A stretch of 64,000 bases of DNA from an uncultured bacterium (GCA_963934795.1 CAWWAF010000003.1:2029-66028); one strand, 5' to 3'. Positions 3,533 through 49,475 are shown, numbered from the stretch's first letter. Translations and numbers: made by a program. Notes: generated from the letters alone by a model not told the origin.

Positions 3533-5449
3533 ATGAGGGAGAGGATGCCGAGATTCGTCGCCGCGATCGCCGCCTGCCTGCTCGTCGCCGCGCCGGTCGC
3601 CGCGCAGCGGGGCGCGGCCGACGGCCAATGGGCGAGCTACGGAGGCGACGACGGCAGTACGAAGTATGCGCCGCTCGACCAGATTGATGCCGGGAACGTG
3701 GATCAACTCGAAGTGGCGTGGACCTGGGCCTCGGCGGACAACGCGGTGCTCGCGCAGAATCGTGAACTCAGTGCACGCGGGTTCAAGGGCACGCCCGTGA
3801 TGGTCGATGGCGTGCTCTATGTGCGGACATCGCTCAGCATTGTGGCCGCGATTGACGCCGCGACGGGTGAGCAGCTCTGGGTCCGTGACGTTGGGAGCTA
3901 CGACGCAGGGCGGCCAACCAACCTCGGGTTCAACACCCGCGGCGTGGCGCACTGGTCGGACGGTGTCGAGTCCAGGATCTTCCTCGCGACTGGTGACTCG
4001 CATCTGTGGTCGTTCGATGCCGCGACCGGGCAGCCGATCGGTCGCTTCGGTGGCGACGGCAAGGTCGATTTGACCCAAGGACTTTTGCGTGAGGTCCCGC
4101 GAGGCGCATATCAGGTCATGTCCCCGCCCATGGTTGTGGGTGACGTCGTGATCGTCGGGTCGTCCATCTCCGACGGTCCCCAGAATATGACGGCGCCGCC
4201 GGGTGATATCCGCGGCTTCGACACCCGCACCGGTCGTCTGCTCTGGACGTTTCACACCGTCGCCCAAGCCGGAGAGTTCGGGAACGACACCTGGGAGGAC
4301 AACTCTTGGCGCTATACGGGCAACACGAATGTGTGGACCGTCATGAGCGCTGACCAGGAACTCGGTTACGTGTATCTCCCGATCGGGACCCCGACCAACG
4401 ACTGGTACGGTGGACATCGGTTGGGCGACAATCTGTTCGCGGAGAGCCTGGTCTGTCTGGATGCCGCCACCGGTGAGCGGGTCTGGCATTTTCAGATGGT
4501 GCACCACGGGCTGTGGGACTACGACCTCCCGGCCGCGCCGACGCTGGTCGACATCACGGTCGATGGCCGGGATATCAAGGCGGTCGCGCAGGTGAGCAAG
4601 CAGGGGTTCACCTATGTGTTCGACCGCGTGACGGGCGAACCGGTCTGGCCGATCGAGGAACGTCCGGTGGCGCAGTCGTCGGTGCCAGGTGAGCGCAGCT
4701 CGGCGACGCAGCCATTTCCCACCAAGCCACCGGCCTTCGAGCGTCAAGGGATGTCCGTGGACGCGCTCATTGACTTCACACCCGAACTGCGCGCTGAGGC
4801 CGAGCAGATTCTGTCCGGGTTCGAGTACGGAGACCTCTTCCATCCGCCGTCCGAGAAGGGCACGATTCAGATGCCAGGCTGGGCCGGTGGGGCCAATTGG
4901 TACGGCGCCGGGTTCGACCCTGAGACGGACTATCTGTATGTCCCCTCACGGACAGATCCCATTTCCGTGCGCCTGGTGCAGCCGGACCGTGAGCGTTCCG
5001 ACTTTACCTACCGGCGTGGCCGCAGTGGATTGCGCGGTCCGCAGGGCCTTCCGCTCGCGAAGCCACCCTATTCACGGCTGACGGCGATCAATCTTGCGAC
5101 CGGCGAGCAGGCCTGGCAGGTGCCGCTGGGAGACGGACCCCGGCAACAAGTCATCGACCTTGGGGCCCCGGACCCCGGGCCGCTCGGTGGCGCTGTATAC
5201 ACGGGCCCCGTCGTAACGGAGACGCTGCTCTTCCTGGGGCTCCGTGGCAACCGCGACACGGGGCAGGAGCCGGTGCTGAATGCGTATGACAAAGCGAACG
5301 GAGAGATCGTGCATGCCGTCGACCTCCCGGTTCCGCTCAACGGAACCCCGATGACCTATATGGCCGAGGGCCGGCAGTACGTTGTGGCGGCCTACAGCAG
5401 CGGTGTCGACTCGGGGCTCCTCGCGCTGGCATTGCCGACAGATCCCTGA
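3533..5449 (+). CDS. periplasmic PQQ-dependent dehydrogenase (glucose/quinate-type beta-propeller quinoprotein)
   Basis: 638 aa with a signal peptide, then WASYGGDDGSTKYAPLDQIDAGNVDQLEVAWTW, which is typical of the quinoprotein N-terminus. There is no vicinal Cys-Cys. It is a paralogue of 14034..16070. Confidence 0.85.
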   Translation: MRERMPRFVAAIAACLLVAAPVAAQRGAADGQWASYGGDDGSTKYAPLDQIDAGNVDQLEVAWTWASADNAVLAQNRELSARGFKGTPVMVDGVLYVRTSLSIVAAIDAATGEQLWVRDVGSYDAGRPTNLGFNTRGVAHWSDGVESRIFLATGDSHLWSFDAATGQPIGRFGGDGKVDLTQGLLREVPRGAYQVMSPPMVVGDVVIVGSSISDGPQNMTAPPGDIRGFDTRTGRLLWTFHTVAQAGEFGNDTWEDNSWRYTGNTNVWTVMSADQELGYVYLPIGTPTNDWYGGHRLGDNLFAESLVCLDAATGERVWHFQMVHHGLWDYDLPAAPTLVDITVDGRDIKAVAQVSKQGFTYVFDRVTGEPVWPIEERPVAQSSVPGERSSATQPFPTKPPAFERQGMSVDALIDFTPELRAEAEQILSGFEYGDLFHPPSEKGTIQMPGWAGGANWYGAGFDPETDYLYVPSRTDPISVRLVQPDRERSDFTYRRGRSGLRGPQGLPLAKPPYSRLTAINLATGEQAWQVPLGDGPRQQVIDLGAPDPGPLGGAVYTGPVVTETLLFLGLRGNRDTGQEPVLNAYDKANGEIVHAVDLPVPLNGTPMTYMAEGRQYVVAAYSSGVDSGLLALALPTDP

Positions 5450-14033: not shown

Positions 14034-16070
14034 CTAGGGCAGCGCCAAGGCGATGAGCTCCGGCACGGGGGAGCCGCCTACCGTCAGCGCCACGTATTGC
14101 TTGCCGTCCAGCAGATACGTCATCGGCGTGCCGATGGCGCCGCGCGGAAGGTCGACCGAGGCGAGTGGCTCGCCGGTGGCCTTGTTGATTGCCAGGAGGC
14201 GTGGACCGCCGTCACTGCCTCCCGTCGTGAGCGCATACATGAGCAGCGTCTTGGTCACCAACGGTCCGCTCCGGCTCCCATCACCTCCAACGGGTGGCAG
14301 GTTGAGGTCCCGGAGCATCGGATGATTGCGCACCCGATCGCCGTCGCCCAGCGGCTGCATCCAGGTGTGGTCGCCGGTATTGAGATTGATGGCGGTCATT
14401 CGGGAGTAGGGCGGCTTGAAGAGAGGAAGCCCCTGCGGCATCGTCACCTGACGGGCATATTCTCCTCGTCCTTCGATGACGGCGAGCGTGGCGTCCTCGC
14501 CCGGTTGTGGCTCGCGATAGCGGCGAAGACTGAACGCGTTGGACGATGGCACGTAAAGCAGACCGGTCTCCGGGTCGACGCCCGCACCTGACCAGTTCGC
14601 GCCACCCCCAGAGCTGGGTCGCTGGATGGTGCCGCTCAGACTCTGTGGCGTAAAGAGCGGCCCGAGGCGGAATCCCTCGACAGCGTCGATCGCCATCTGT
14701 CTGATCTCGGGAGTGAAATCGACCAGGTCCTCGATGGTAGCGCCCTGATACTCGAATGGCGCCGGGCGTGTGGGGAACGGCTGCGTCGGCCAGACTTGCT
14801 CACCGGGGATGTCGGTGTCCGTTGGCACCGCGCGTTCTTCGATCGGCCAGACCGGTTCGCCGGTGACTCGATCGAAGACGTACACAAACCCTTGCTTACT
14901 GATCTGCGCGAGCGCCTTGATGGGGCGGCCGTCGACTTCAATGTCAACCAGGTTCGGTGCGGCCGGAAAGTCGTAGTCCCAGAGGCCGTGGTGCACCGCC
15001 TGGAAGTGCCACTCGCGCTCCCCGGTCTCAATGTTCAGCGCAATCACGCTCTCCGCGAACAGGTTCGCGCCGGGTCGGTGCCCACCGTAGTAGTCGGGGG
15101 CCGGTGTATTGGTGGGGAGATAGAGGAGGCCCAGGTCCTCGTCGGCGCTCATCAGCGACCATACCCCGACCTTGCCGGTGACTCGCCATGAGTCGCCGCC
15201 CCACGTGTCATTGCCGAACTCATCGCCCTGGGGAATCGTGTGAAACGTCCACTTCGTGCTTCCCGAGTGCACGTCAAAGCCGCGCATCCAGCCGGGGGGC
15301 GCCTCGCGCGTGATGTTGTATGACGAGATGGAACTGGGCGTGATTACCGTGTCGCCGACCACGATCGGCGGTGACTGTACGGAGTAGAGCAGCGCATTGA
15401 GCCAGTCCCGATTTTCGCGATCCGCCCGCGGGAGGTCCCGCACCAAGTCGAGCCGCCCATTCTCGCCAAAGTCGAGGCAGGGGCGGCCGGTCGCCGCGTC
15501 GACGCAGATGAGGTACCCGTTTCCGGTGCCCCAATACACCCGCTCGGACTCACCGTCGCTCCAATACGCCACGCCCCGTTGGTTCCAGCGGGCGCTCATG
15601 GTGGTGGTACCGGCTTCGTACGTCTTGGGGTTGTACACCCAGAGCGTGTCGCCCGTCCTGGCGTCGATGGCCGCGCCGGCCGACGTCGGCATGTTGATAA
15701 ACATCCGCCCATTGGCCATCAGCGGTGTCGCCTTGAGGTTGTTCGTATATGGCGGTTGGCCGTCGCGCCACCGATTGGGGTCCGCCTGGTTCAGGGCCTC
15801 GAAGATCACGTCTGACGGCGCCGACCACTCGCCACCGTCCGGCGTGGTGAGACTCATCACGGCGTCAGAGGATTGCCAGCGCCAGGCAATCTCAAGGTCG
15901 GCGAAGTTTGACGCGTCAATCTGGTCAAGCGGCGAGTATTTGGTGCCGCCCAGGTCGCCTCCATAGGTCCGCCACTCACCAGTGGCTGGTGCGCCCTGTT
16001 GCGCGGCGGCGGGGGTCGTGGCTGCCAAGGCGACAGCTGCGACTCCGCAAAATCGAGTCCATGTGCTCAT
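14034..16070 (-). CDS. periplasmic PQQ-dependent dehydrogenase, paralogue of 3533..5449
   Basis: The start at the internal ATG 16070 is preceded by GGAGAG. A signal peptide is followed by GEWRTYGGDLGGTKYSPLDQIDASNFADLEIAWRW. Colinear with the other copy. Confidence 0.85.
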   Translation of the reverse strand: MSTWTRFCGVAAVALAATTPAAAQQGAPATGEWRTYGGDLGGTKYSPLDQIDASNFADLEIAWRWQSSDAVMSLTTPDGGEWSAPSDVIFEALNQADPNRWRDGQPPYTNNLKATPLMANGRMFINMPTSAGAAIDARTGDTLWVYNPKTYEAGTTTMSARWNQRGVAYWSDGESERVYWGTGNGYLICVDAATGRPCLDFGENGRLDLVRDLPRADRENRDWLNALLYSVQSPPIVVGDTVITPSSISSYNITREAPPGWMRGFDVHSGSTKWTFHTIPQGDEFGNDTWGGDSWRVTGKVGVWSLMSADEDLGLLYLPTNTPAPDYYGGHRPGANLFAESVIALNIETGEREWHFQAVHHGLWDYDFPAAPNLVDIEVDGRPIKALAQISKQGFVYVFDRVTGEPVWPIEERAVPTDTDIPGEQVWPTQPFPTRPAPFEYQGATIEDLVDFTPEIRQMAIDAVEGFRLGPLFTPQSLSGTIQRPSSGGGANWSGAGVDPETGLLYVPSSNAFSLRRYREPQPGEDATLAVIEGRGEYARQVTMPQGLPLFKPPYSRMTAINLNTGDHTWMQPLGDGDRVRNHPMLRDLNLPPVGGDGSRSGPLVTKTLLMYALTTGGSDGGPRLLAINKATGEPLASVDLPRGAIGTPMTYLLDGKQYVALTVGGSPVPELIALALP

Positions 16071-30342: not shown

Positions 30343-31491
30343 ATGCGTAAGTTTGTTCTCGTCCTCGTGGCCGTCGTTGCGGGAGGCCTACTGGCCGGCC
30401 CCGCCTCGCTCCAAGATCTCGGCCCCGAAGGTCCGAGCCCCTACGAAGCGGTGGAAGGCTGGTTGAAGCCGTTCGCTGGTGCCGGATTCGCGTTCGGTGG
30501 TAACTCAGGCGTTCACGCCGAGTCGCCCGACCGCATTTTCGTCGTGCAGCGTGGCGAGACGCGGTTGCCCGATACCGTGCCGCCCGGGTTCGCCGGTTTT
30601 GTGGGCTCCATCGGGATCAATGCGCTCACCGATACGGATGGCCGTACTTGGCAGAACTGCATTTACATCGTCGATGGAGATGGGAACCTGATCGAGGTGT
30701 GGGACCAGTGGGATCACCTGTTCCAAGGGTCTGAGGGGCCCGGTCCTCACCGCATTCGGATCAGCCCCTATGACCCGGAAAAGCGGGTGTGGGTGGTGCA
30801 CGAGTCTGGGCATCAGATCTTCGTCTTCTCCAACGACGGGAGCGAGCTGCTGGCGACGCTGGGCGAGAAGAACGTGCCCGGGAACGATGAGACCCACCTT
30901 GGTGGTCCACAGGATGTCGCGTTCTTCCCCGACGGTCGCGTGATGGTGGCCGACGGGATCATCAACGGGCGAGTGATGATCCTCGACGCGGACTTGAACT
31001 ACATCACCGAGTTCGGTGGTGAGCCCGGCGACGGGCGCGGACGTTTCAACCGCCCGCACGGCCTCGCGCTGGGACCGAATGGCCGTATTTTCGTTACGGA
31101 TCGGGACAACCGACGCGTCCAGGTTTTCAACGAGACCACCCGCTCAGCGTGGTATCACCCCAACATCTCGCCGATTGCGACATGGCCCGGGTTCGATCTG
31201 CCGCTCGATGTCATCGTCAACCAATATGACGTGTTCATCACCGACGTCTCCTCCAGCGGGGCCAGTATTGTCCAGCTCGACCTGAACGGTAACCGCCAGT
31301 ACACGGCCAGAATGCCGACAGAGGGCCCTGGGATGTTCCGCGAGGTGCACTCGTTCTCGGTCGATAGCGACGGCAATGTCTACGGGGCCGACAATCAGCA
31401 CGGGCGGGTCCAGAAGCTCGTGCCACGGGCCGATGCCGATCAGGCACTGCTCGTGGAGGTGCCGTTCGTCGAAACTGACGTGACGCCATAG
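30343..31491 (+). CDS. secreted NHL-repeat six-bladed beta-propeller protein (PAL-like fold)
   Basis: Signal peptide and repeated NHL-type blades (VTDRDNRRVQVF, GADNQHGRVQKL, VADGIINGRVMIL). Confidence 0.65.
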   Translation: MRKFVLVLVAVVAGGLLAGPASLQDLGPEGPSPYEAVEGWLKPFAGAGFAFGGNSGVHAESPDRIFVVQRGETRLPDTVPPGFAGFVGSIGINALTDTDGRTWQNCIYIVDGDGNLIEVWDQWDHLFQGSEGPGPHRIRISPYDPEKRVWVVHESGHQIFVFSNDGSELLATLGEKNVPGNDETHLGGPQDVAFFPDGRVMVADGIINGRVMILDADLNYITEFGGEPGDGRGRFNRPHGLALGPNGRIFVTDRDNRRVQVFNETTRSAWYHPNISPIATWPGFDLPLDVIVNQYDVFITDVSSSGASIVQLDLNGNRQYTARMPTEGPGMFREVHSFSVDSDGNVYGADNQHGRVQKLVPRADADQALLVEVPFVETDVTP

Positions 31492-43980: not shown

Positions 43981-45390
43981 TTAGTAGTCGTTCTGGTCCA
44001 TCGACACCCGGATGATTTCCTCGTCGTTCCGCAATACCAGGTGGCGGTTGGCGAACGCCGGGTGCGACCAGACCACGAGGCGGTCGCTCTGGCCATGGGT
44101 GGCGCGACCGCGCGAGCCGGCCCTGGCCCCGCCGTACCCGGACCGCGAGGTGGGATTCATCAGGTGGGTTCGGTCCAGCTCGACATATCCCTCCGTGTTG
44201 AACTGCGCGATGATCAGATCGCCGTTCTCGTTGTAGACGAAATAGCGGTCTTCGTGCTGGATGAAATACGCTGACCCCCACCGATTTCTCGTGGTCAGTC
44301 CTTCCGCTTCCCACAGCCGTTCGCCGGTCTCGGCCAGCAGGCCGCGCACCTGTCCATGGCTGCCGATGCCATAGATGTAGTCGCCGACGATGAGCGGCGT
44401 CGTCATCACCGAGTGAAGCCCCGTGCTTTCAGCCACCTCGACGTCACCCACCGAGACCCGGTTGTTCTCGCCGCGCCAGATGGCGGTCGCGTCCGGTCGG
44501 TCCTGGTCGAGCCGCATCATCAGCGACCCGCTGTAGAACCCGGATACAAATAGATAGGGTCCGCTGTGGACCGCGTCGGCCACCGTCATGTTGGCTCGGC
44601 CCCGGAACTCTTCTTCCCAGTACAACTCACCGGTTTCGGGGTCGAGCGAGGAGAGTCCTCGCGGGTGCCAGACGATCAGCTGTTTGGCCCCGCCAGCCTC
44701 AATGATGCTGGGCTGGTGATACCCCATCTCCGTGCGGCTCTCGATGGCCCGCCACACCTCGTCACCGGTGTGCTTGTCGAAGGCCATCACCAGCGCGTCC
44801 GGTTCGCCGCCTACCAGCAGGATGACGCGGTCGCCGTCGATTAACGGGGCACTCGACGTTCCCCAGACCGGAATGTTGGTGTCGTACTCGGCGACCGTAT
44901 CTTTCTCCCAGATCACCGCACCGGTTTCGACATTCAGGCACAGCACGAGCCCAGTCGACCCCACGACATACACGCGGTCTCCGTCCACCGTGGGACTGGC
45001 GCGGGGGCCGGTCGCGTATGTGAACATCAGCATCCGGTAGGTGGTGGGCCACTCGTGGCTCCACAGCACCTCTCCCGTCTCTTCGTCGAGCGCGAGGACA
45101 CGTTCGGTCCCGTCCATCGTTCGCGGTTCGGTCTCCACATAGTCGAGCACGAACACGCGGCCATCGGCGACGGAGGGCCCTGAATAGCCGCCGTTCACCG
45201 GGACGCGCCACTTCACGGTCAAGCCTTCGTCTGGAAACTCCTCGAGGATCCCGGTCTCGGTCCACAGTCCCAGACGCTCGGTGCCGCGCCATTGAGGCCA
45301 GTCCTTTGCGGACAGCGTGGGGACGGCTGCGGTCGCCGCGGTGAAGAGGCCGACGAGCGCGATGAGCGCGATGCGATGTGCTGGCTGCAT
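43981..45390 (-). CDS. PQQ-like beta-propeller repeat protein (BamB-like fold, secreted)
   Basis: Signal peptide followed by KDWPQWRGTERLG. Repeated blades of the pattern ...DG.V(Y/F)V.... 469 aa. Confidence 0.75.
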   Translation of the reverse strand: MQPAHRIALIALVGLFTAATAAVPTLSAKDWPQWRGTERLGLWTETGILEEFPDEGLTVKWRVPVNGGYSGPSVADGRVFVLDYVETEPRTMDGTERVLALDEETGEVLWSHEWPTTYRMLMFTYATGPRASPTVDGDRVYVVGSTGLVLCLNVETGAVIWEKDTVAEYDTNIPVWGTSSAPLIDGDRVILLVGGEPDALVMAFDKHTGDEVWRAIESRTEMGYHQPSIIEAGGAKQLIVWHPRGLSSLDPETGELYWEEEFRGRANMTVADAVHSGPYLFVSGFYSGSLMMRLDQDRPDATAIWRGENNRVSVGDVEVAESTGLHSVMTTPLIVGDYIYGIGSHGQVRGLLAETGERLWEAEGLTTRNRWGSAYFIQHEDRYFVYNENGDLIIAQFNTEGYVELDRTHLMNPTSRSGYGGARAGSRGRATHGQSDRLVVWSHPAFANRHLVLRNDEEIIRVSMDQNDY

Positions 45391-45580: not shown

Positions 45581-46060
45581 TCACTCGGACGGCCCCGCGT
45601 CCGGCGCGAACAGATCCTCCATGATGCGATACCTCGCCGCGTTCATCCCCAACTGTTCGTAGGTGGTCTGTGCCACACGGTTGTCAGCATCGACGTAGAG
45701 ACGCAGGCCCACTACACCCGGGTCGGCTCGCGCGAGCGTCTTCAGGTGGTCGTGGAGCATCCTGAAGACGCCACGGCGACGATGGTCTCGTCTGACATAG
45801 ACGCTCTGGATCCACCAGACGTCACCGTTTCGCCAGTCGCTCCACTCACGCGTATGCATGATCTGGCCGACAATCTCCTGCCCAGCGCATGCCACGTAAT
45901 ACCGGCCGCGGGAGGCGTTGGTGAGGAGGGCCTCGACCCCGAGGGTTACCAGGTCGCGGTCGAGTGACCTGGCCTCGGTCTCAGCCGCGATCCGCAGATT
46001 GAAGTCGGCGACGGTCGCTGCGTCCGTGGGGGTGGCGAGTCTGATGACGAACGGGGGCAT
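45581..46060 (-). CDS. GNAT family N-acetyltransferase
   Basis: 159 aa. Acetyl-CoA binding region VYVRRDHRRRGVFRMLHDHL (R/Q-x-x-G-x-G/A-like). Confidence 0.8.
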   Translation of the reverse strand: MPPFVIRLATPTDAATVADFNLRIAAETEARSLDRDLVTLGVEALLTNASRGRYYVACAGQEIVGQIMHTREWSDWRNGDVWWIQSVYVRRDHRRRGVFRMLHDHLKTLARADPGVVGLRLYVDADNRVAQTTYEQLGMNAARYRIMEDLFAPDAGPSE

Positions 46061-46202: not shown

Positions 46203-47195
46203 TCAGCGTGTGACCTGGACGGTCACGTTTTCGTAGCTGAAATGCGCGCCGTCGCTCGCGACGGCCCGGAGCGTGTAGTCCCCGGGCTCGAGGAAGGTCA
46301 CCGTGTTCTCCCACCGGTTTCCGGCGGGTGGTTCCGGGAGAATATACGGCGGTGACCACGGGGAGTTTCCCCACACACGCGTATCCATCCAGGCCTTCAT
46401 CTGAACAGGCTCGAACGCCGCGTGGTCGGCCGGCCCGCGAAAGACAATCCACGACAGACGCAGACCCGGGGCGCTGCTGACGACAGACGATCCGACACCG
46501 GCTGTGGTGTAGAACTCGTCCAGGTCCTTCGGGGGCTGTCCACGGTCCGAGCGCTCAGGAAAGTTGTCCGGATCGTTCGCCATGGCGAACAGCGCCAGCG
46601 GTTCGCCGACCTTGGCGCTACGCTGCATCCCGCCCTCCACCGTCAGGTCTGGAGGCAGGTTCGTGCGGAGACGGTCGTCAAGGCTGCCGAAAGCACCACC
46701 CACCTCGGTCGACAGCACCTGGGGGTCCATCCGGTAGTCCGGACTGAGCGTGGCAAATGCCCGGTTCGTTCGCCCATGGCTGGTCAAGGTCCACACCACT
46801 TCCCGCTCTCCGAAGTCCGCCGGTACCTGGACGGTGAAGAGGAACGGGTTGCGTCGTGGATAAAAGTGCGTCGGTTGGCCGCGGTCGGCCGCTGCCGCGT
46901 CAAAGGCCGCGGTCGTGAGGTCGTCCAGCGCATTCGGTTCGGCGATGGAGAAGTAGTTCTTGGGCCCGATCGGGAAGTCGAACTCCTCCTCCCAGTTCGA
47001 ATTCATATAACCGAACCACAGCGTAAATGACCCGTCGTTGTTGGGCCACCAGCCCTCGAACGAGGGGTGGATACTCTGGCCCCGCAGGAACATGAACCGC
47101 GTCTGGGCATCTGCGCCACGCGCCGCGAACGGCGCCGTGACGATGAGAGAGAGCAGTAGCAACCCGAGCGCCGCCCGCGACACAGGCTGACTCAT
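46203..47195 (-). CDS. secreted hypothetical protein with C-terminal Ig/PKD-like domain, partner of the haem-c/Cu-monooxygenase-like gene (copy 1)
   Basis: The ATG at 47195 overlaps the upstream TGA (TGATG). Signal peptide present. Paralogue of 62811..63758, with shared blocks FGYMN.NWEE, GQPT.F.PRRN.F.F.V.VP, VWTLT, L.V.GGM.R...VGEPL and GL(R)(L/V)SW(I/F). C-terminal GDYTLRAVASDGAHFSYENVTVQV. Confidence 0.55.
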   Translation of the reverse strand: MSQPVSRAALGLLLLSLIVTAPFAARGADAQTRFMFLRGQSIHPSFEGWWPNNDGSFTLWFGYMNSNWEEEFDFPIGPKNYFSIAEPNALDDLTTAAFDAAAADRGQPTHFYPRRNPFLFTVQVPADFGEREVVWTLTSHGRTNRAFATLSPDYRMDPQVLSTEVGGAFGSLDDRLRTNLPPDLTVEGGMQRSAKVGEPLALFAMANDPDNFPERSDRGQPPKDLDEFYTTAGVGSSVVSSAPGLRLSWIVFRGPADHAAFEPVQMKAWMDTRVWGNSPWSPPYILPEPPAGNRWENTVTFLEPGDYTLRAVASDGAHFSYENVTVQVTR

Positions 47196-48682
47196 CACTG
47201 CTGTCCGCTTTCCTCTGTGGCGGTCTCCATCGGCGGCACCGGAGCCCAACACAACGGGCAGCCGACGTCATATTCGTTCCGGTCCTTCATGGCGGCGCGT
47301 CGGTCGGCCATCTCGCCCTGGAATTGTTCCTCTGTGAGCTCGACGGCATAGCCGAGGTCAATGAACATATTGGCGACAGATCGCCGGCCACCGCCGGCCC
47401 AGTTCCTGCTGTCCGCGAGGTTCTTGTTGCCCGGGGTCGTGTCCAGGAAGCCAACGATGTGCAGGATGGTGCCTTTCGGCAGCAGCGGCGCCGCATCGTC
47501 CTCGTAGACGTACTGCTTGACCCAACTGTGGTCGTAGCCGACGCAATTGAGTGTGAAGTGGTTCTTGCCCCAGATCGCTTCGATACACATGCGCGTGCCG
47601 GGTGCGTGCAGATGGGGTTCGAAGGCGACGAGCTTGGTGTGCTGATTCAGCACCGTGAACGCGTGCATCTCCTGGCCGGAACGACCGGGCGCGACGTCGA
47701 TGTCGTTGCCGTTACCCAACCCCACCCGAGCGCGGTCGCCGTACTCCGGTGCGTAGCCCTTGTCGTGGAAGATGAAGCCAAATTCAAGATGTGCGGTCGT
47801 TTCCGCGATGCCGTTCGAGTGGAGGTGGCTGGCACCCAGGTGCAATGCGGAGCCCGCCTGCAGCAGCGTGCCAAATTTCTCCGGGAAGATGTCGGCGTTG
47901 CGTCCCACTTCGTGGATCGGCCAGCGCACGCGGGTGTCCTCGTCTATATCGGTGCCGTCCTCGTTCAGGACTCCGCTGGAATAGGTCATATGGTGGAAGA
48001 TGTACCGTCCACCGACGGTATTGTCTCCGGCCCCCGGAGGGATATCGTTGATCTCCCTCACCTCTACCGCTTTCACATACCGGTCTTCCGTGAGGCCCGT
48101 CGGCACCAAGCCGATGTCACCCCAGCGGTCCGGCCCAACGGCGGGGCGCGTCATATCTTTCGAACGTAACACGAGGTCCGGTTCCCCGATGGTCCACTCT
48201 CCGGCGCCGGCAAATTCGAGCGGCGGGGGCATGTCGTTGGCATCCCCGCGGGGCGCGCCGTGGTCCGCCCACGCCTGAATCAGCGCGAGCTCCTCGTCGC
48301 TCAGGGAGGGGTCGTTCTTGAATTTGAGGATGCCGAGATCCTTCTCAAGGAAGAACGGTGGCATCGCGCCCTGCCGGTCTCTGATGGAGGTTCTGGTCTT
48401 GATCGAACGAGCCCAGGGCCTCACCTGATCGTAGGTGAGGAGGGACATGGGTGCGCCGCCGTCGGGCCGATGACAGCCCTGACAGCTTCGCTGCAAGATG
48501 GGTGCGATGTGCTTGGTGAACGTGACATCCTCGGCGTCGATGCCGAAATCGGCCACGTCATATAAGTGGACATTGGGATGGGGGTCGCTACCGGCGAGCG
48601 ATTGCGCCGCCGCGGCGGCGGGTGCCAAGGTCACCAACGGAACGATCAGGGCCGCCGCGTACGCGAACAGTTTGGTGCGCAT
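47195..48682 (-). CDS. secreted fusion: c-type cytochrome (CxxCH, PSCyt1-like) N-domain plus PHM/DBH-like copper monooxygenase core (copy 1)
   Basis: Signal peptide. HIAPILQRSCQGCHRPDGGAPMSL. His/Met ligand-like motifs occur in PHM order and spacing: YIFHHMTY, then about 56 aa later ASHLHSNG, then about 70 aa later FEPHLHAPGTRMC, then about 80 aa later VANMFIDLGY. Confidence 0.5.
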   Translation of the reverse strand: MRTKLFAYAAALIVPLVTLAPAAAAAQSLAGSDPHPNVHLYDVADFGIDAEDVTFTKHIAPILQRSCQGCHRPDGGAPMSLLTYDQVRPWARSIKTRTSIRDRQGAMPPFFLEKDLGILKFKNDPSLSDEELALIQAWADHGAPRGDANDMPPPLEFAGAGEWTIGEPDLVLRSKDMTRPAVGPDRWGDIGLVPTGLTEDRYVKAVEVREINDIPPGAGDNTVGGRYIFHHMTYSSGVLNEDGTDIDEDTRVRWPIHEVGRNADIFPEKFGTLLQAGSALHLGASHLHSNGIAETTAHLEFGFIFHDKGYAPEYGDRARVGLGNGNDIDVAPGRSGQEMHAFTVLNQHTKLVAFEPHLHAPGTRMCIEAIWGKNHFTLNCVGYDHSWVKQYVYEDDAAPLLPKGTILHIVGFLDTTPGNKNLADSRNWAGGGRRSVANMFIDLGYAVELTEEQFQGEMADRRAAMKDRNEYDVGCPLCWAPVPPMETATEESGQQ

Positions 48683-48896
48683 TTCACACTCCCTATACAC
48701 AACGTCCCGACGCCAACCCATGGTGGGTTGAGGCTGTCGGTCACCTAGCTTGCAGAAACGCTCCATTATGACCTGGACCGCACCGTCAGCTCAATCACCA
48801 AACCGACTCGGCTAGATGGTCTTTTGCCCCGTCGAGCGTCGGAGACGGTGACCCAGGGCGCGACAACGCCCGCCCTGGGTCAGCCCGATCCGAGTG

Positions 48897-49475
48897 CTAG
48901 TTGAAGCGAATGCCGCCGAGAATGGCGAACGTGGTGCTCCTGACGTCTCGCGCGTTCGTCTCTTTCGCAATGTTCCGGAATCCCCAGGTGCCGCGACCCT
49001 CGATGATGAATCTCGAGATCTCGAACCCGATGCCGGCCACGATGCTCACGTCGACGCGCTCAACCTCGTCGGTAGTAATCGCAAGCTCGTCTTTGAACAA
49101 CAGATCGAGCGACGGTCCCGCGATGCCGTACACCACCGCGTCACTGAGTCCCGTGCCCGAAGACCCAATGTTGATTCGCAACAGTGCAGGCACTTGGAAG
49201 TAGTACAGGGGCGATTCGCCGGCTGCGGAATCGCTCTTCTTGGCCAGGACGTTGAACTCGCCCATGAAGCCGATCGTGCCCGGGCGGTTGCCGCCGAAGA
49301 ACAGGCCCGCCTGCCATCCTTGACCGCTGTCGAACGCCTCCGTGGCGTCGAACGACGAATGCAGAAAGCCGCCCTTGACGCCGACACCGATGCCCTGCGC
49401 CTCGGTCAGAGCCGGGGCGGACAGAAACATCGAGACCAGTGCCGCGAAGGCCACTACGCGAACCACACGATTCAT
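48897..49475 (-). CDS. outer-membrane beta-barrel (OmpA-like TM / porin family) protein
   Basis: 192 aa. Signal peptide, alternating hydrophobic beta-strand pattern, and C-terminal ...FAILGGIRFN. Confidence 0.7.
   Translation of the reverse strand: MNRVVRVVAFAALVSMFLSAPALTEAQGIGVGVKGGFLHSSFDATEAFDSGQGWQAGLFFGGNRPGTIGFMGEFNVLAKKSDSAAGESPLYYFQVPALLRINIGSSGTGLSDAVVYGIAGPSLDLLFKDELAITTDEVERVDVSIVAGIGFEISRFIIEGRGTWGFRNIAKETNARDVRSTTFAILGGIRFN

What the first reader, a model, noticed from the sequence alone, without database searches (positions are those of the whole stretch)
47195..48682. Secreted fusion of a c-type haem domain with a PHM/DBH-like copper monooxygenase core
After a signal peptide comes a single CxxCH haem-c site in a Planctomycete-cytochrome-like context (HIAPILQRSCQGCHRPDGGAPMSLL). 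A domain follows with His/Met motifs in the order and approximate spacing of the CuH and CuM ligands of peptidylglycine alpha-hydroxylating monooxygenase. These are FHHM (PHM has HHM), then ..HLH.., then H-L-H, then N-M-F, at roughly 56, 70 and 80-aa intervals. PHM intervals are about 64, 70 and 70. A built-in cytochrome could replace ascorbate as electron donor to the copper sites. To my knowledge such bacterial fusions are not functionally characterised.
Basis: inference. Interest (0 to 1): 0.7.

Follow-up and report, generated by a model that had tools for sequence, protein, structure and literature searches.

The report
Cytochrome-fused PHM-like copper monooxygenase
This gene encodes an exported bacterial protein that joins a haem-c cytochrome to a copper enzyme core of the type that makes amidated hormones and noradrenaline in animals; it always sits beside a partner gene, belongs to a very large family with no known function, and probably receives electrons from cytochromes instead of vitamin C.

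Summary
Window 47195-48682 (- strand) encodes a 495-aa exported protein with a signal peptide, one CxxCH haem-c domain and a two-domain core. The predicted structure matches only PHM and human DBH at high confidence (Foldseek E 1.5e-6, probability 1.00). Profile alignments put H230/H231, H286, H357/H359 and M439 exactly on PHM H107/H108, H172, H242/H244 and M314. These six positions and the haem motif stay conserved down to 25% identity, while other histidines drift.

Pfam and NCBIfam do not recognise the copper core. Public records call the protein "cytochrome c" or "hypothetical". PHM's peptide-binding residues are replaced, so it is not a peptidylglycine hydroxylase.

New findings:
- A 330-aa secreted partner gene is present in 84 of 84 related loci. 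In the window it is translationally coupled through a TGATG overlap.
- In 47 of 85 loci a PQQ alcohol dehydrogenase lies close by, usually directly upstream. It often comes with a PedF-like dihaem cytochrome c, a cupin and a TAXI-TRAP transporter.
- In 15 loci a PAL-like NHL propeller is also present.

Best reading: an ascorbate-independent periplasmic copper monooxygenase reduced through its own cytochrome. The substrate is unknown. I found no published characterisation.

The parts
48765..48794 (-). Weak sigma-70-like promoter candidate (TTGAGC-18-CATAAT) upstream of the gene
   Evidence: 9 of 12 matches, 1 site found against 0.4 expected. This is a consensus match only. An inverted repeat after the upstream OMP gene (48840-48890) suggests that this gene pair is a separate transcription unit.
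48689..48693 (-). Shine-Dalgarno GGGAG, 6 nt before the ATG at 48682
   Evidence: read directly from the sequence.
47195..48682 (-). Gene for the 495-aa haem-c / PHM-like copper monooxygenase fusion (catalytic subunit)
48602..48682 (-). Signal peptide, residues 1-27 (MRTKLFAYAAALIVPLVTLAPAAAAAQ)
   Evidence: for the sequence and for the predicted N-terminal helix 2-25. Export is also required for c-type haem attachment (established knowledge).
48233..48535 (-). Mono-haem c-type cytochrome domain, roughly residues 50-150
   Evidence: Pfam Cytochrome_CBB3 at E 4e-4 over residues 60-110. In relatives, Cytochrome_CBB3 matches 22 of 26 and Haem_bd 14 of 26. Local matches to PccH 4rlr and to the haem domain of hydrazine synthase alpha.
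48470..48484 (-). Haem attachment motif C67-Q-G-C70-H71
   Evidence: Invariant in A1 and A2. Conserved in 78-79 of 79-80 distant representatives (C67 78/79, C70 79/80, H71 79/80).
48356..48364 (-). M107-P-P, the probable distal Met ligand of the haem (M79 is the alternative)
   Evidence: Invariant in A1 and A2. M107 is kept in 96 of 98 and M79 in 78 of 84 distant representatives. The assignment as ligand is inferred.
47738..48190 (-). First jelly-roll domain, equivalent to the PHM CuH domain (roughly residues 165-315)
   Evidence: Foldseek and hhalign alignments to PHM and DBH. Beta-strand pattern.
47990..47995 (-). H230-H231, equivalent to PHM H107/H108 (CuH ligands)
47825..47827 (-). H286, equivalent to PHM H172 and the first His of EVHYH in DBH (third CuH ligand)
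   Evidence: Invariant in A2. Kept in 87 of 96 distant representatives.
47333..47737 (-). Second jelly-roll domain, equivalent to the PHM CuM domain (roughly residues 316-450)
   Evidence: Sub-threshold Cu2_monoox_C matches in relatives.
47606..47614 (-). H357-L-H359, equivalent to PHM H242/H244 (CuM ligands). The preceding E355 replaces PHM R240.
47366..47368 (-). M439, equivalent to PHM M314 (CuM thioether ligand)
   Evidence: Kept in 56 of 57 distant representatives. The AlphaFold2 model has low confidence in this stretch (residues 420-440).
47249..47260 (-). C-terminal C475-P-L-C478 motif of unknown role, conserved wherever the region is covered
47193..47197 (-). TGATG stop/start overlap that couples translation of the monooxygenase and the partner gene
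46203..47195 (-). Partner gene: a 330-aa secreted protein with two Ig-like beta-sandwich domains, probably an accessory subunit
   Evidence: Present in 84 of 84 related loci and directly downstream on the same strand in 83. More than 4000 homologues, all unnamed. Model and Foldseek results.

Best explanation
The gene encodes the catalytic subunit of a periplasmic two-subunit copper monooxygenase of the PHM/DBH type. This type has two separate copper sites, CuH and CuM. After Sec export, the N-terminal domain receives one covalently bound haem c (C67/C70, H71, distal Met probably M107).

The two jelly-roll domains bind two copper ions. CuH is held by H230, H231 and H286. CuM is held by H357, H359 and M439. 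As in PHM, CuM would bind O2 and hydroxylate a C-H bond of the substrate, while CuH relays electrons. Unlike PHM and DBH, the reductant is not ascorbate. Electrons enter through the fused cytochrome from periplasmic c-type cytochromes.

In about half of the related genomes the electron source is probably the adjacent PQQ-dependent alcohol/aldehyde dehydrogenase with its PedF-like dihaem cytochrome. Oxidation of the hydroxylated product, or of the aldehyde it releases, could then pay for the next hydroxylation. The translationally coupled 330-aa Ig-like protein is an obligate accessory subunit, with a role in substrate binding, stability or docking.

The substrate is not a glycine-extended peptide, because the PHM residues R240, N316 and Y318 are replaced by E355, I441 and L443. 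The most likely chemistry is hydroxylation of an activated C-H next to a heteroatom or aromatic ring, followed by spontaneous or lyase-assisted cleavage. Cupin or PAL-like NHL neighbours could supply the lyase in some genomes, and a TRAP transporter could take up the acid product.

What is shown: the fold, ligand conservation, the haem motif, the partner linkage and the operon statistics. What is inferred: copper content, direction of electron flow, monooxygenase activity, the role of the partner and the class of substrate.
For: Fold:
- The top PDB matches are PHM (ranks 1-3 and 5-14) and human DBH (rank 4), at probability 1.00 and E 1.5e-6 to 3e-5.

Sequence:
- The A2 profile hits DBH 4zel at E 0.014.
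- hhalign against PHM gives E 2.9e-4 over 242 columns with all six ligands in register.
- Sub-threshold Cu2_monoox_C and Cu2_monooxygen matches occur in distant relatives.

Conservation:
- CxxCH, MPP, H230, H231, H286 and H357 are invariant in A2, and H359 and M439 are at least 90% conserved, at 25-54% identity.
- In 150 distant representatives the ligand positions are 77-98% conserved, against 23-35% for H340 and H348.

Export:
- Signal peptide and c-type haem motif.

Partner:
- Present in 84 of 84 loci and adjacent in 83, with a TGATG overlap in the window.

Electron supply:
- A PQQ dehydrogenase of the methanol/ethanol family (TIGR03075, 501 bits against a cut-off of 480) occurs in 47 of 85 loci, at a median of 104 bp upstream, with 43 of 51 copies on the same strand.
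- A dihaem cytochrome with a PedF/c550-like domain occurs in 27 loci.

Redox plausibility (from memory, not tested):
- His/Met c-type haems and PHM CuH both lie near +250 to +300 mV.
Against: - No metal or haem content can be measured here.
- The model is of moderate quality (pLDDT 71). The haem loop (68-80) and the M439 loop (420-440) fall below 50.
- TM-scores to PHM are only 0.41-0.49 with rmsd about 8 A. This probably reflects hinge differences and the extra domain, but it is not a tight superposition.
- No Pfam or NCBIfam model reaches its curated cut-off on the copper core.
- The window itself has no PQQ dehydrogenase, dihaem cytochrome or TRAP genes next to the pair, and about 45% of loci lack them. 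The coupling to PQQ is therefore not obligatory.
- Five further invariant His (H257, H288, H340, H348, H385) and two Cys pairs in the close family are unexplained and could mean a different metal stoichiometry.
Confidence: 0.6

Rival explanations
1. The architecture is the same, but electrons flow the other way. The copper core oxidises a substrate as an oxidase or dehydrogenase and passes the electrons through CuH and the fused haem c to the respiratory chain. Copper-containing thiocyanate dehydrogenase, which donates to a cytochrome c552, works in this way.
For: A fused or neighbouring c-type cytochrome is just as typical of periplasmic dehydrogenases. The PQQ dehydrogenase and c550-like cytochrome next door form a donor-to-respiration chain, and the protein could simply feed the same cytochrome pool. 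Nothing computed here fixes the direction of flow. PMC9456337 (listed) describes a copper dehydrogenase paired with a cytochrome c.
Against: The full His2Met CuM site, the O2-activating site of PHM, DBH and TBM, is retained (M439 in 56 of 57). No member of the PHM fold is known to act as a dehydrogenase (established knowledge of the family). CuH has no known function other than electron relay towards CuM.
Confidence: 0.12
2. A bacterial counterpart of the animal amidating enzyme PAM. The protein hydroxylates the alpha-carbon of a glycine-like or N-/O-carboxymethyl group. A PAL-like NHL propeller then splits the carbinolamide to release glyoxylate, giving dealkylation or amidation in the periplasm.
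For: An NHL-propeller gene occurs in 15 of 85 loci and lies directly after the partner gene in L003/L004, L016 and L018. The best PDB match of its N-terminal half is rat PAL 3fvz (E 5e-11). It shares 33% identity over 196 residues with PAL. PAL H585, H690 and R706 are kept in 15-16 of 16 members. A TAXI-TRAP transporter for organic acids follows the pair in 13-15 loci.
Against: Only a minority of loci carry the NHL gene, and the window has none nearby. PHM's carboxylate and peptide-binding residues are replaced: R240 by E355, N316 by I441 and Y318 by L443. PAL Y654 is mostly His, and H786 is mostly Glu. The rat PAL sequence used was recalled from memory, and only residues 68-182 were checked against 3fvz alignments.
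Confidence: 0.15
3. A cytochrome c with a non-catalytic double jelly-roll module, for example a carbohydrate- or ligand-binding domain as in PNGase F and CBM relatives. The histidines would be structural or would bind a different metal, so the protein is not a copper monooxygenase.
For: Pfam and NCBIfam recognise only the cytochrome part, and public names are 'cytochrome c'. The double jelly-roll fold is shared with non-copper proteins: CBM22 tandems and viral capsids appear lower in the Foldseek list (PMC8812541).
Against: All six PHM ligand positions are in register and are selectively conserved, whereas other His are not. PHM and DBH outrank every other fold with probability 1.00, against 0.1-0.7 for the others. 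Identity of 58-93% across three phyla points to a tightly constrained active site.
Confidence: 0.05

Closest known systems
Peptidylglycine alpha-hydroxylating monooxygenase catalytic core (PHM; PDB 1PHM, 1SDW)
   Same: Two-jelly-roll fold. The order and spacing of the six ligands match: HH...H for CuH and HxH...M for CuM. Both work in an extracytoplasmic compartment.
   Different: The bacterial protein has an N-terminal haem-c domain and a C-terminal CxxC tail. PHM substrate residues R240, N316 and Y318 are replaced by E355, I441 and L443. PHM's disulfide pattern is absent. There is no ascorbate context. It has an obligate separate partner protein. Identity to PHM is about 12-14%.
Dopamine beta-hydroxylase and the MOXD / tyramine beta-monooxygenase group (PDB 4ZEL)
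   Same: This is the only PDB sequence that the family profile finds for the copper core (E 0.014). The HHM, HxH and HxH motifs align. DBH also carries an extra N-terminal domain (DOMON) in front of the core.
   Different: The extra domain here is a c-type cytochrome, not DOMON. There is no dimerisation domain. The protein is bacterial and periplasmic. Pfam matches are below threshold.
Cytochrome-c-fused copper nitrite reductase (Ralstonia pickettii, PDB 3ZBM), and cellobiose dehydrogenase cytochrome donating to LPMO
   Same: The design principle is shared: a tethered cytochrome acts as a built-in one-electron donor to a copper active site outside the cytoplasm. 3ZBM is cited in bioRxiv 10.64898/2026.07.10.737718. 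The CDH/LPMO comparison comes from general knowledge.
   Different: The copper domains are unrelated: cupredoxin T1/T2 sites or the LPMO histidine brace, against the PHM double jelly roll. The reactions are also different.
Bacterial thioredoxin-fold (AhpC/TSA) plus PHM-like fusions
   Same: One distant relative, P0214 (1251 aa), combines AhpC-TSA and thioredoxin-like domains, cytochrome domains and the same copper core. The core has therefore been recombined with different redox-donor modules.
   Different: The window protein has only the haem-c donor. These fusions are also uncharacterised as far as I could find.

Membership tests
PHM/DBH-type copper monooxygenases with two separate copper sites (structural superfamily; Pfam clan of PHM and PNGase F) | Two consecutive jelly-roll beta-sandwich domains that superpose on the PHM catalytic core | tested here: met
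   Foldseek: PHM at ranks 1-3 and 5-14 and DBH at rank 4, probability 1.00, E 1.5e-6 to 3e-5, about 290 aligned columns. The TM-score is only 0.41-0.49, so the superposition is loose.
PHM/DBH-type copper monooxygenases with two separate copper sites (structural superfamily; Pfam clan of PHM and PNGase F) | CuH ligands: an HH pair plus a third His about 60 residues later | tested here: met
   H230/H231 align with H107/H108 and H286 with H172. They are invariant in A2 and kept in 75-87 of 96-97 distant representatives.
PHM/DBH-type copper monooxygenases with two separate copper sites (structural superfamily; Pfam clan of PHM and PNGase F) | CuM ligands: HxH plus a Met about 70-80 residues later | tested here: met
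   H357/H359 align with H242/H244 and M439 with M314. They are kept in 75 of 82, 75 of 82 and 56 of 57 distant representatives.
PHM/DBH-type copper monooxygenases with two separate copper sites (structural superfamily; Pfam clan of PHM and PNGase F) | Two Cu per chain about 11 A apart, and O2-dependent hydroxylation | not testable with these tools
   This needs metal analysis, a structure and an enzyme assay.
Pfam Cu2_monooxygen (PF01082) and Cu2_monoox_C (PF03712) | Score at or above the Pfam gathering threshold | tested here: not met
   The window protein gives no match at E up to 1. The best relatives reach 15.9-20.4 bits against a cut-off of 23 (Cu2_monoox_C) and 17 bits against 30 (Cu2_monooxygen).
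Peptidylglycine alpha-hydroxylating monooxygenase (EC 1.14.17.3, enzyme function) | Substrate-anchoring residues R240, N316 and Y318 that bind the peptidyl-glycine carboxylate and backbone | tested here: not met
   The hhalign register gives E355, I441 and L443 at these positions. E355, I441 and L443 are invariant in the 120 close homologues.
Peptidylglycine alpha-hydroxylating monooxygenase (EC 1.14.17.3, enzyme function) | Ascorbate as reductant | not testable with these tools
   The fused haem c and the cytochrome/PQQ neighbours argue for a protein donor, but this is an inference.
Class I-like mono-haem c-type cytochrome domain | A single CxxCH with a distal Met, in an exported protein | tested here: met
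   C67xxC70H71 is the only CxxCH. M107-P-P is invariant. Cytochrome_CBB3 matches at E 4e-4, below the cut-off, and in 22 of 26 relatives.
Planctomycete cytochrome PSCyt1 (PF07635) | Match to the PSCyt1 profile | tested here: not met
   PSCyt1 is not listed for the window protein at E up to 1, nor among the families matched by A2 members at E up to 0.1. The resemblance is in motif style only.

The most novel reading that the evidence does not exclude
The pair is the core of a previously unrecognised and very widespread periplasmic C-H oxidation system in soil and marine bacteria. A PHM-like copper monooxygenase is driven by cytochrome c in place of ascorbate. Its reducing equivalents are recycled from a PQQ dehydrogenase that oxidises the product. 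In some lineages the system is completed by a PAL-like lyase. That would make it a bacterial counterpart, and possibly the evolutionary source, of the animal PHM + PAL amidating machinery.
Probability: 0.3. Interest if true: 0.85.

Novelty: new variant of a known kind. Interest (0 to 1): 0.72.

Why it matters
PHM, DBH and tyramine beta-monooxygenase are studied as animal neuroendocrine enzymes, and all depend on ascorbate. How electrons cross the roughly 11 A gap between their two coppers is a long-standing question. A bacterial version with a covalently attached haem would be a soluble system that can be triggered by spectroscopy or electrochemistry, in which single electrons can be injected and followed.

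The family is also large. At least 556 species-representative genomes and more than 6700 sequence clusters carry it, in Acidobacteriota, Gemmatimonadota and marine Gammaproteobacteria. It is highly conserved yet annotated only as "cytochrome c". An abundant periplasmic oxidation reaction in soils and oceans may therefore be missing from metabolic models. The operon link to PQQ dehydrogenases suggests a self-funding loop of hydroxylation and dehydrogenation, similar to the proposed coupling between pMMO and methanol dehydrogenase.

Tried and rejected
- Single-sequence phmmer against the PDB found nothing.
- NCBIfam gave only a weak paired_CXXCH hit.
- Pfam on the window protein found only a sub-threshold Cytochrome_CBB3 match, with no PSCyt1 and no Cu2_monooxygen.
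- The partner protein gave only noise-level Pfam hits (PKD, Big_3_4). Its AlphaFold2 model matched only generic tandem Ig/FN3 proteins, so it gave no functional clue. A DOMON-like role was considered, but nothing supports it.
- I looked for the PQQ dehydrogenase, dihaem cytochrome, cupin and TRAP genes next to the pair in the window. They are absent. The nearby 469-aa propeller (43981-45390) matches PQQ_2 (the BamB family), not the dehydrogenase cluster, and PQQ-ADH-like genes lie more than 30 kb away.
- Six literature searches for a characterised bacterial PHM-like enzyme or haem fusion returned only animal, review or unrelated papers.
- The upstream ATG at 48766 was rejected as the start.
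- The viral-capsid and CBM22 Foldseek hits were rejected as generic double-jelly-roll similarity (PMC8812541).
Full report
**1. What is in the window**

The finding's coordinates match a minus-strand ORF exactly: 47195..48682, 495 codons plus a stop. A longer ORF that reaches 48766 is not the real gene. Homologues all start at the equivalent of MRTK. A GGGAG Shine-Dalgarno sequence lies 6 nt upstream of the ATG at 48682. A weak promoter-like site sits at 48794-48765.

The N-terminus (MRTKLFAYAAALIVPLVTLAPAAAAAQ) looks like a Sec signal peptide. The protein has one CxxCH (C67-Q-G-C70-H71) and no other haem motif. Its four other cysteines are C366, C380, C475 and C478.

**2. Is the core really PHM/DBH-like?**

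Standard annotation tools do not say so.
- Pfam gives only a sub-threshold Cytochrome_CBB3 hit.
- NCBIfam gives nothing useful.
- A single-sequence search of the PDB finds nothing.

(a) Structure. An AlphaFold2 model built on 28 homologues (pLDDT 71, pTM 0.68) was searched against the PDB with Foldseek. Ranks 1-3 and 5-14 are rat PHM and rank 4 is human DBH. E-values run from 1.5e-6 to 3e-5, probability is 1.00, and about 290 of about 310 PHM residues are aligned. Everything else scores far lower in probability: CBM22 tandems, birnavirus and nodavirus capsids, cupins. These weaker hits are the generic double jelly-roll similarity described in PMC8812541. TM-scores are modest (0.41-0.49, rmsd about 8 A). 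I attribute this to the hinge between the two domains and to the extra cytochrome domain, but I could not check it because model coordinates are not exposed.

(b) Profile against the PDB. A profile of the window protein plus 25 distant full-length relatives (alignment A2, 25-54% identity) was searched against PDB sequences. It finds DBH (4zel) at E 0.014 over 200 residues. The family's vHH, HlH and PHmH motifs align with DBH's VHHM, VHYH and LHTH.

(c) Profile against PHM. hhalign of A2 against the rat PHM catalytic core gives E 2.9e-4 over 242 columns. I recalled the rat sequence from memory; the register agrees with the independent DBH alignment. The ligand mapping is:

| Window residue | PHM residue | Site |
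|---|---|---|
| H230 / H231 | H107 / H108 | CuH |
| H286 | H172 | CuH |
| H357 / H359 | H242 / H244 | CuM |
| M439 | M314 | CuM |

In addition, 6 of 26 distant relatives give sub-threshold Cu2_monoox_C matches and 3 of 26 give Cu2_monooxygen matches, in the right places. None reaches Pfam's gathering score.

**3. Conservation**

The family is very large.
- The 90%-identity cluster database holds more than 6700 hits.
- The 50%-identity representative library holds 12,378 hits at E ≤ 1e-3 and 723 at E ≤ 1e-30.
- At least 556 species-representative genomes carry a relative.

The closest 120 homologues come from Acidobacteriota (Vicinamibacterales), Gemmatimonadota and Gammaproteobacteria (Pseudohongiella and other Pseudomonadales). 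They are still 65-91% identical to the window protein. This is unusually tight conservation across phyla.

In A2 the invariant residues are C67, C70, H71, M107-P-P, H230, H231, H286 and H357. H359 and M439 are at least 90% conserved.

I aligned 150 distant representatives to the family HMM, many of them fragments. The counts are as follows:

| Position | Role | Conserved |
|---|---|---|
| H230 | CuH ligand | 84/97 |
| H231 | CuH ligand | 75/97 |
| H286 | CuH ligand | 87/96 |
| H357 | CuM ligand | 75/82 |
| H359 | CuM ligand | 75/82 |
| M439 | CuM ligand | 56/57 |
| H340 | not a ligand | 29/82 |
| H348 | not a ligand | 19/84 |

**4. What it is not**

In the hhalign register the PHM residues that hold the peptidyl-glycine substrate are replaced:
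- R240 becomes E355, which is invariant in the close family.
- N316 becomes I441.
- Y318 becomes L443.

The protein belongs to the PHM/DBH structural and ligand class, but it should not be filed as a peptidylglycine hydroxylase.

The haem domain did not match Pfam PSCyt1. It resembles Haem_bd and Cytochrome_CBB3-type mono-haem domains. It shares its F-x-x-D-I-x-P-I-L...CxxCH motif with PccH and with the C-terminal haem domain of hydrazine synthase alpha.

**5. Surroundings**

*The partner gene.* The stop codon of the gene overlaps the start of the next gene (TGATG at 47193-47197). That gene (46203-47195) encodes a 330-aa secreted protein. It has no cysteines and one invariant His. It also belongs to a very large family (more than 4000 hits) in which every member is unnamed.

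Its model shows two Ig-like beta-sandwiches with long loops that are highly conserved but modelled at low confidence. Foldseek returns only generic tandem Ig/FN3 proteins.

In 84 related loci (80 from species-representative genomes and 4 from metagenome contigs) the partner is present in 84 of 84. It lies directly downstream on the same strand in 83. I read it as an obligate second subunit.

*Other recurrent neighbours.* Clustering all flanking ORFs showed further conserved neighbours:

| Neighbour | Loci (of 85) | Notes |
|---|---|---|
| PQQ-dependent dehydrogenase, methanol/ethanol family | 47 | TIGR03075, 501 bits against a cut-off of 480; median 104 bp upstream; 43 of 51 copies on the same strand |
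| Exported cupin, mandelonitrile-lyase-like | 28 | About 160 aa |
| Dihaem cytochrome c | 27 | N-terminal domain resembles PedF/c550/cL, the natural acceptors of PQQ dehydrogenases |
| TAXI-TRAP binding protein and fused permease | 13-15 | Downstream of the pair |
| Beta-helix protein with SO2930-type dihaem cytochrome | 14-15 | Upstream, opposite strand |
| NHL propeller | 15 | See section 7 |

The typical gammaproteobacterial order is: SO2930< beta-helix< cupin< dihaem> PQQ-ADH> monooxygenase> partner> TAXI> DctM>.

*The window itself.* The window carries only the bare pair. Upstream is an OMP beta-barrel gene. Downstream are a GNAT gene, a PQQ_2 (BamB-family) propeller and a GDSL lipase. 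PQQ-ADH-like genes in the window are more than 30 kb away.

**6. How it most likely works**

*Shown:* an exported protein with a haem-c motif; a PHM/DBH fold; a complete and selectively conserved set of His3 and His2Met ligands; an obligate coupled partner; and frequent operon linkage to a PQQ dehydrogenase and a c550-like cytochrome.

*Inferred:*
- The two copper sites are occupied.
- CuM activates O2 and hydroxylates a C-H bond.
- CuH is reduced by the fused haem instead of by ascorbate.
- The haem is reduced by periplasmic cytochromes.
- Where the PQQ dehydrogenase is present, oxidising the hydroxylated product or the released aldehyde returns the two electrons that each turnover needs. The net reaction would be R-H + O2 to R=O + H2O. 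This is formally like the proposed direct coupling of methanol dehydrogenase to pMMO.

From memory, the potentials are compatible: PQQ about +90 mV, c-type cytochromes about +250 mV and PHM CuH about +270 mV. I did not test this.

The substrate is unknown. The lyase-like neighbours (cupin, PAL-like NHL) and the organic-acid transporter suggest hydroxylation next to a heteroatom followed by cleavage. I give the overall mechanism 0.6. Most of the remaining doubt concerns the direction of electron flow and the actual metal content.

**7. The PAL-like neighbour**

The NHL propeller found in 15 loci lies directly after the partner gene in L003/L004, L016 and L018.
- For its N-terminal half, rat PAL (3fvz), the second enzyme of the animal amidating pathway, is the best PDB match (E 5e-11).
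- It shares 33% identity over 196 residues with PAL.
- PAL's Zn ligands H585 and H690 and the catalytic R706 are kept in 15-16 of 16 members.
- H786 is His in 5 members and Glu in 9. Y654 is mostly His.

This raises the possibility of a bacterial PHM + PAL-type pair in some lineages. It is a minority feature and is absent near the gene in this window, so I keep it as a rival or extension (0.15).

**8. Novelty**

Public records name the protein only "cytochrome c" or "hypothetical protein". Six full-text searches found no characterised bacterial PHM/DBH homologue and no haem-fused version. PMC8812541 describes PHM as widespread in eukaryotes.

I classify it as a new variant of a known kind. The copper-site architecture is known. 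What is new is the built-in cytochrome donor, an obligate accessory subunit and an operon context that points to ascorbate-independent periplasmic chemistry.

Interest is 0.72. A copper-enzyme specialist would find a haem-wired PHM-type enzyme surprising and experimentally valuable, and the family's abundance in soil and marine bacteria adds ecological weight. Function, substrate and metal content remain untested.

**9. Unexplained**

- Five more histidines are invariant in the close family: H257, H288, H340, H348 and H385.
- The C366/C380 pair and the C-terminal C475-P-L-C478 motif have no assigned role.
- I cannot explain the extreme conservation across phyla.
- The role of the partner's conserved but disordered loops is open.

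Noticed in passing
L003:10508-11686, L016:12558-13730, L018:11118-12230 and 12 further loci: An NHL-repeat propeller gene near the monooxygenase/partner pair is PAL-like. PDB 3fvz is the best match for its N-terminal half (E 5e-11). It is 33% identical to rat PAL over 196 residues. PAL H585, H690 and R706 are conserved, H786 is His or Glu, and Y654 is mostly His.
   Followed up: partly
L001:6072-7730 and 46 further loci (for example L018, L025, L035): A PQQ-dependent dehydrogenase of the methanol/ethanol family (TIGR03075) lies at a median of 104 bp upstream of the monooxygenase gene. It is often preceded by a PedF-like dihaem cytochrome c and a divergently transcribed exported cupin that resembles mandelonitrile lyase. 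The residue two positions after its catalytic Asp is Asn (DWDSN). By my recollection this is neither the Ln-type Asp nor the usual Ca-type Ala.
   Followed up: partly
window 43981-45390 (-): A 469-aa secreted PQQ_2 (BamB-family) beta-propeller lies two genes downstream of the partner, separated from it by a GNAT acetyltransferase (45581-46060). It is not a member of the PQQ-ADH cluster found next to the pair in other genomes.
   Followed up: partly
window 3626-4639 (+), 14856-15974 (-), 30661-31389 (+): tblastn shows two PQQ-ADH-like genes (30-36% identity to the operon-type dehydrogenase over about 340-370 residues) and one NHL-repeat gene elsewhere in the window. All are far from the finding.
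   Followed up: no
window 48840-48890 (- strand): A G+C-rich inverted repeat (GACCCAGGGCG...CGCCCTGGGTC) lies just after the stop of the OMP beta-barrel gene (48897-49475). It looks like a terminator without a T-run and separates that gene from the monooxygenase gene.
   Followed up: no
L066, L070, L076, L007, L021, L028: Some genomes carry two copies of the monooxygenase/partner pair within 20 kb, sometimes divergently arranged around PQQ-ADH genes. This suggests paralogous expansion, perhaps with different substrates.
   Followed up: no
P0214 (1251 aa), P0223 (1064 aa): Distant relatives fuse the same haem-c plus copper core to AhpC/TSA and thioredoxin-like domains, or to EF-hands and a second cytochrome. 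The core has been combined with other redox or Ca-binding modules.
   Followed up: no
L018:2493-4801 (-) and 13-14 further gammaproteobacterial loci: A parallel beta-helix protein (TIGR03805, NosD-like) and an SO2930-family dihaem cytochrome (TIGR03806) form a conserved divergent pair upstream of the cupin / dihaem / PQQ-ADH / monooxygenase cluster. Both are of unknown function.
   Followed up: no
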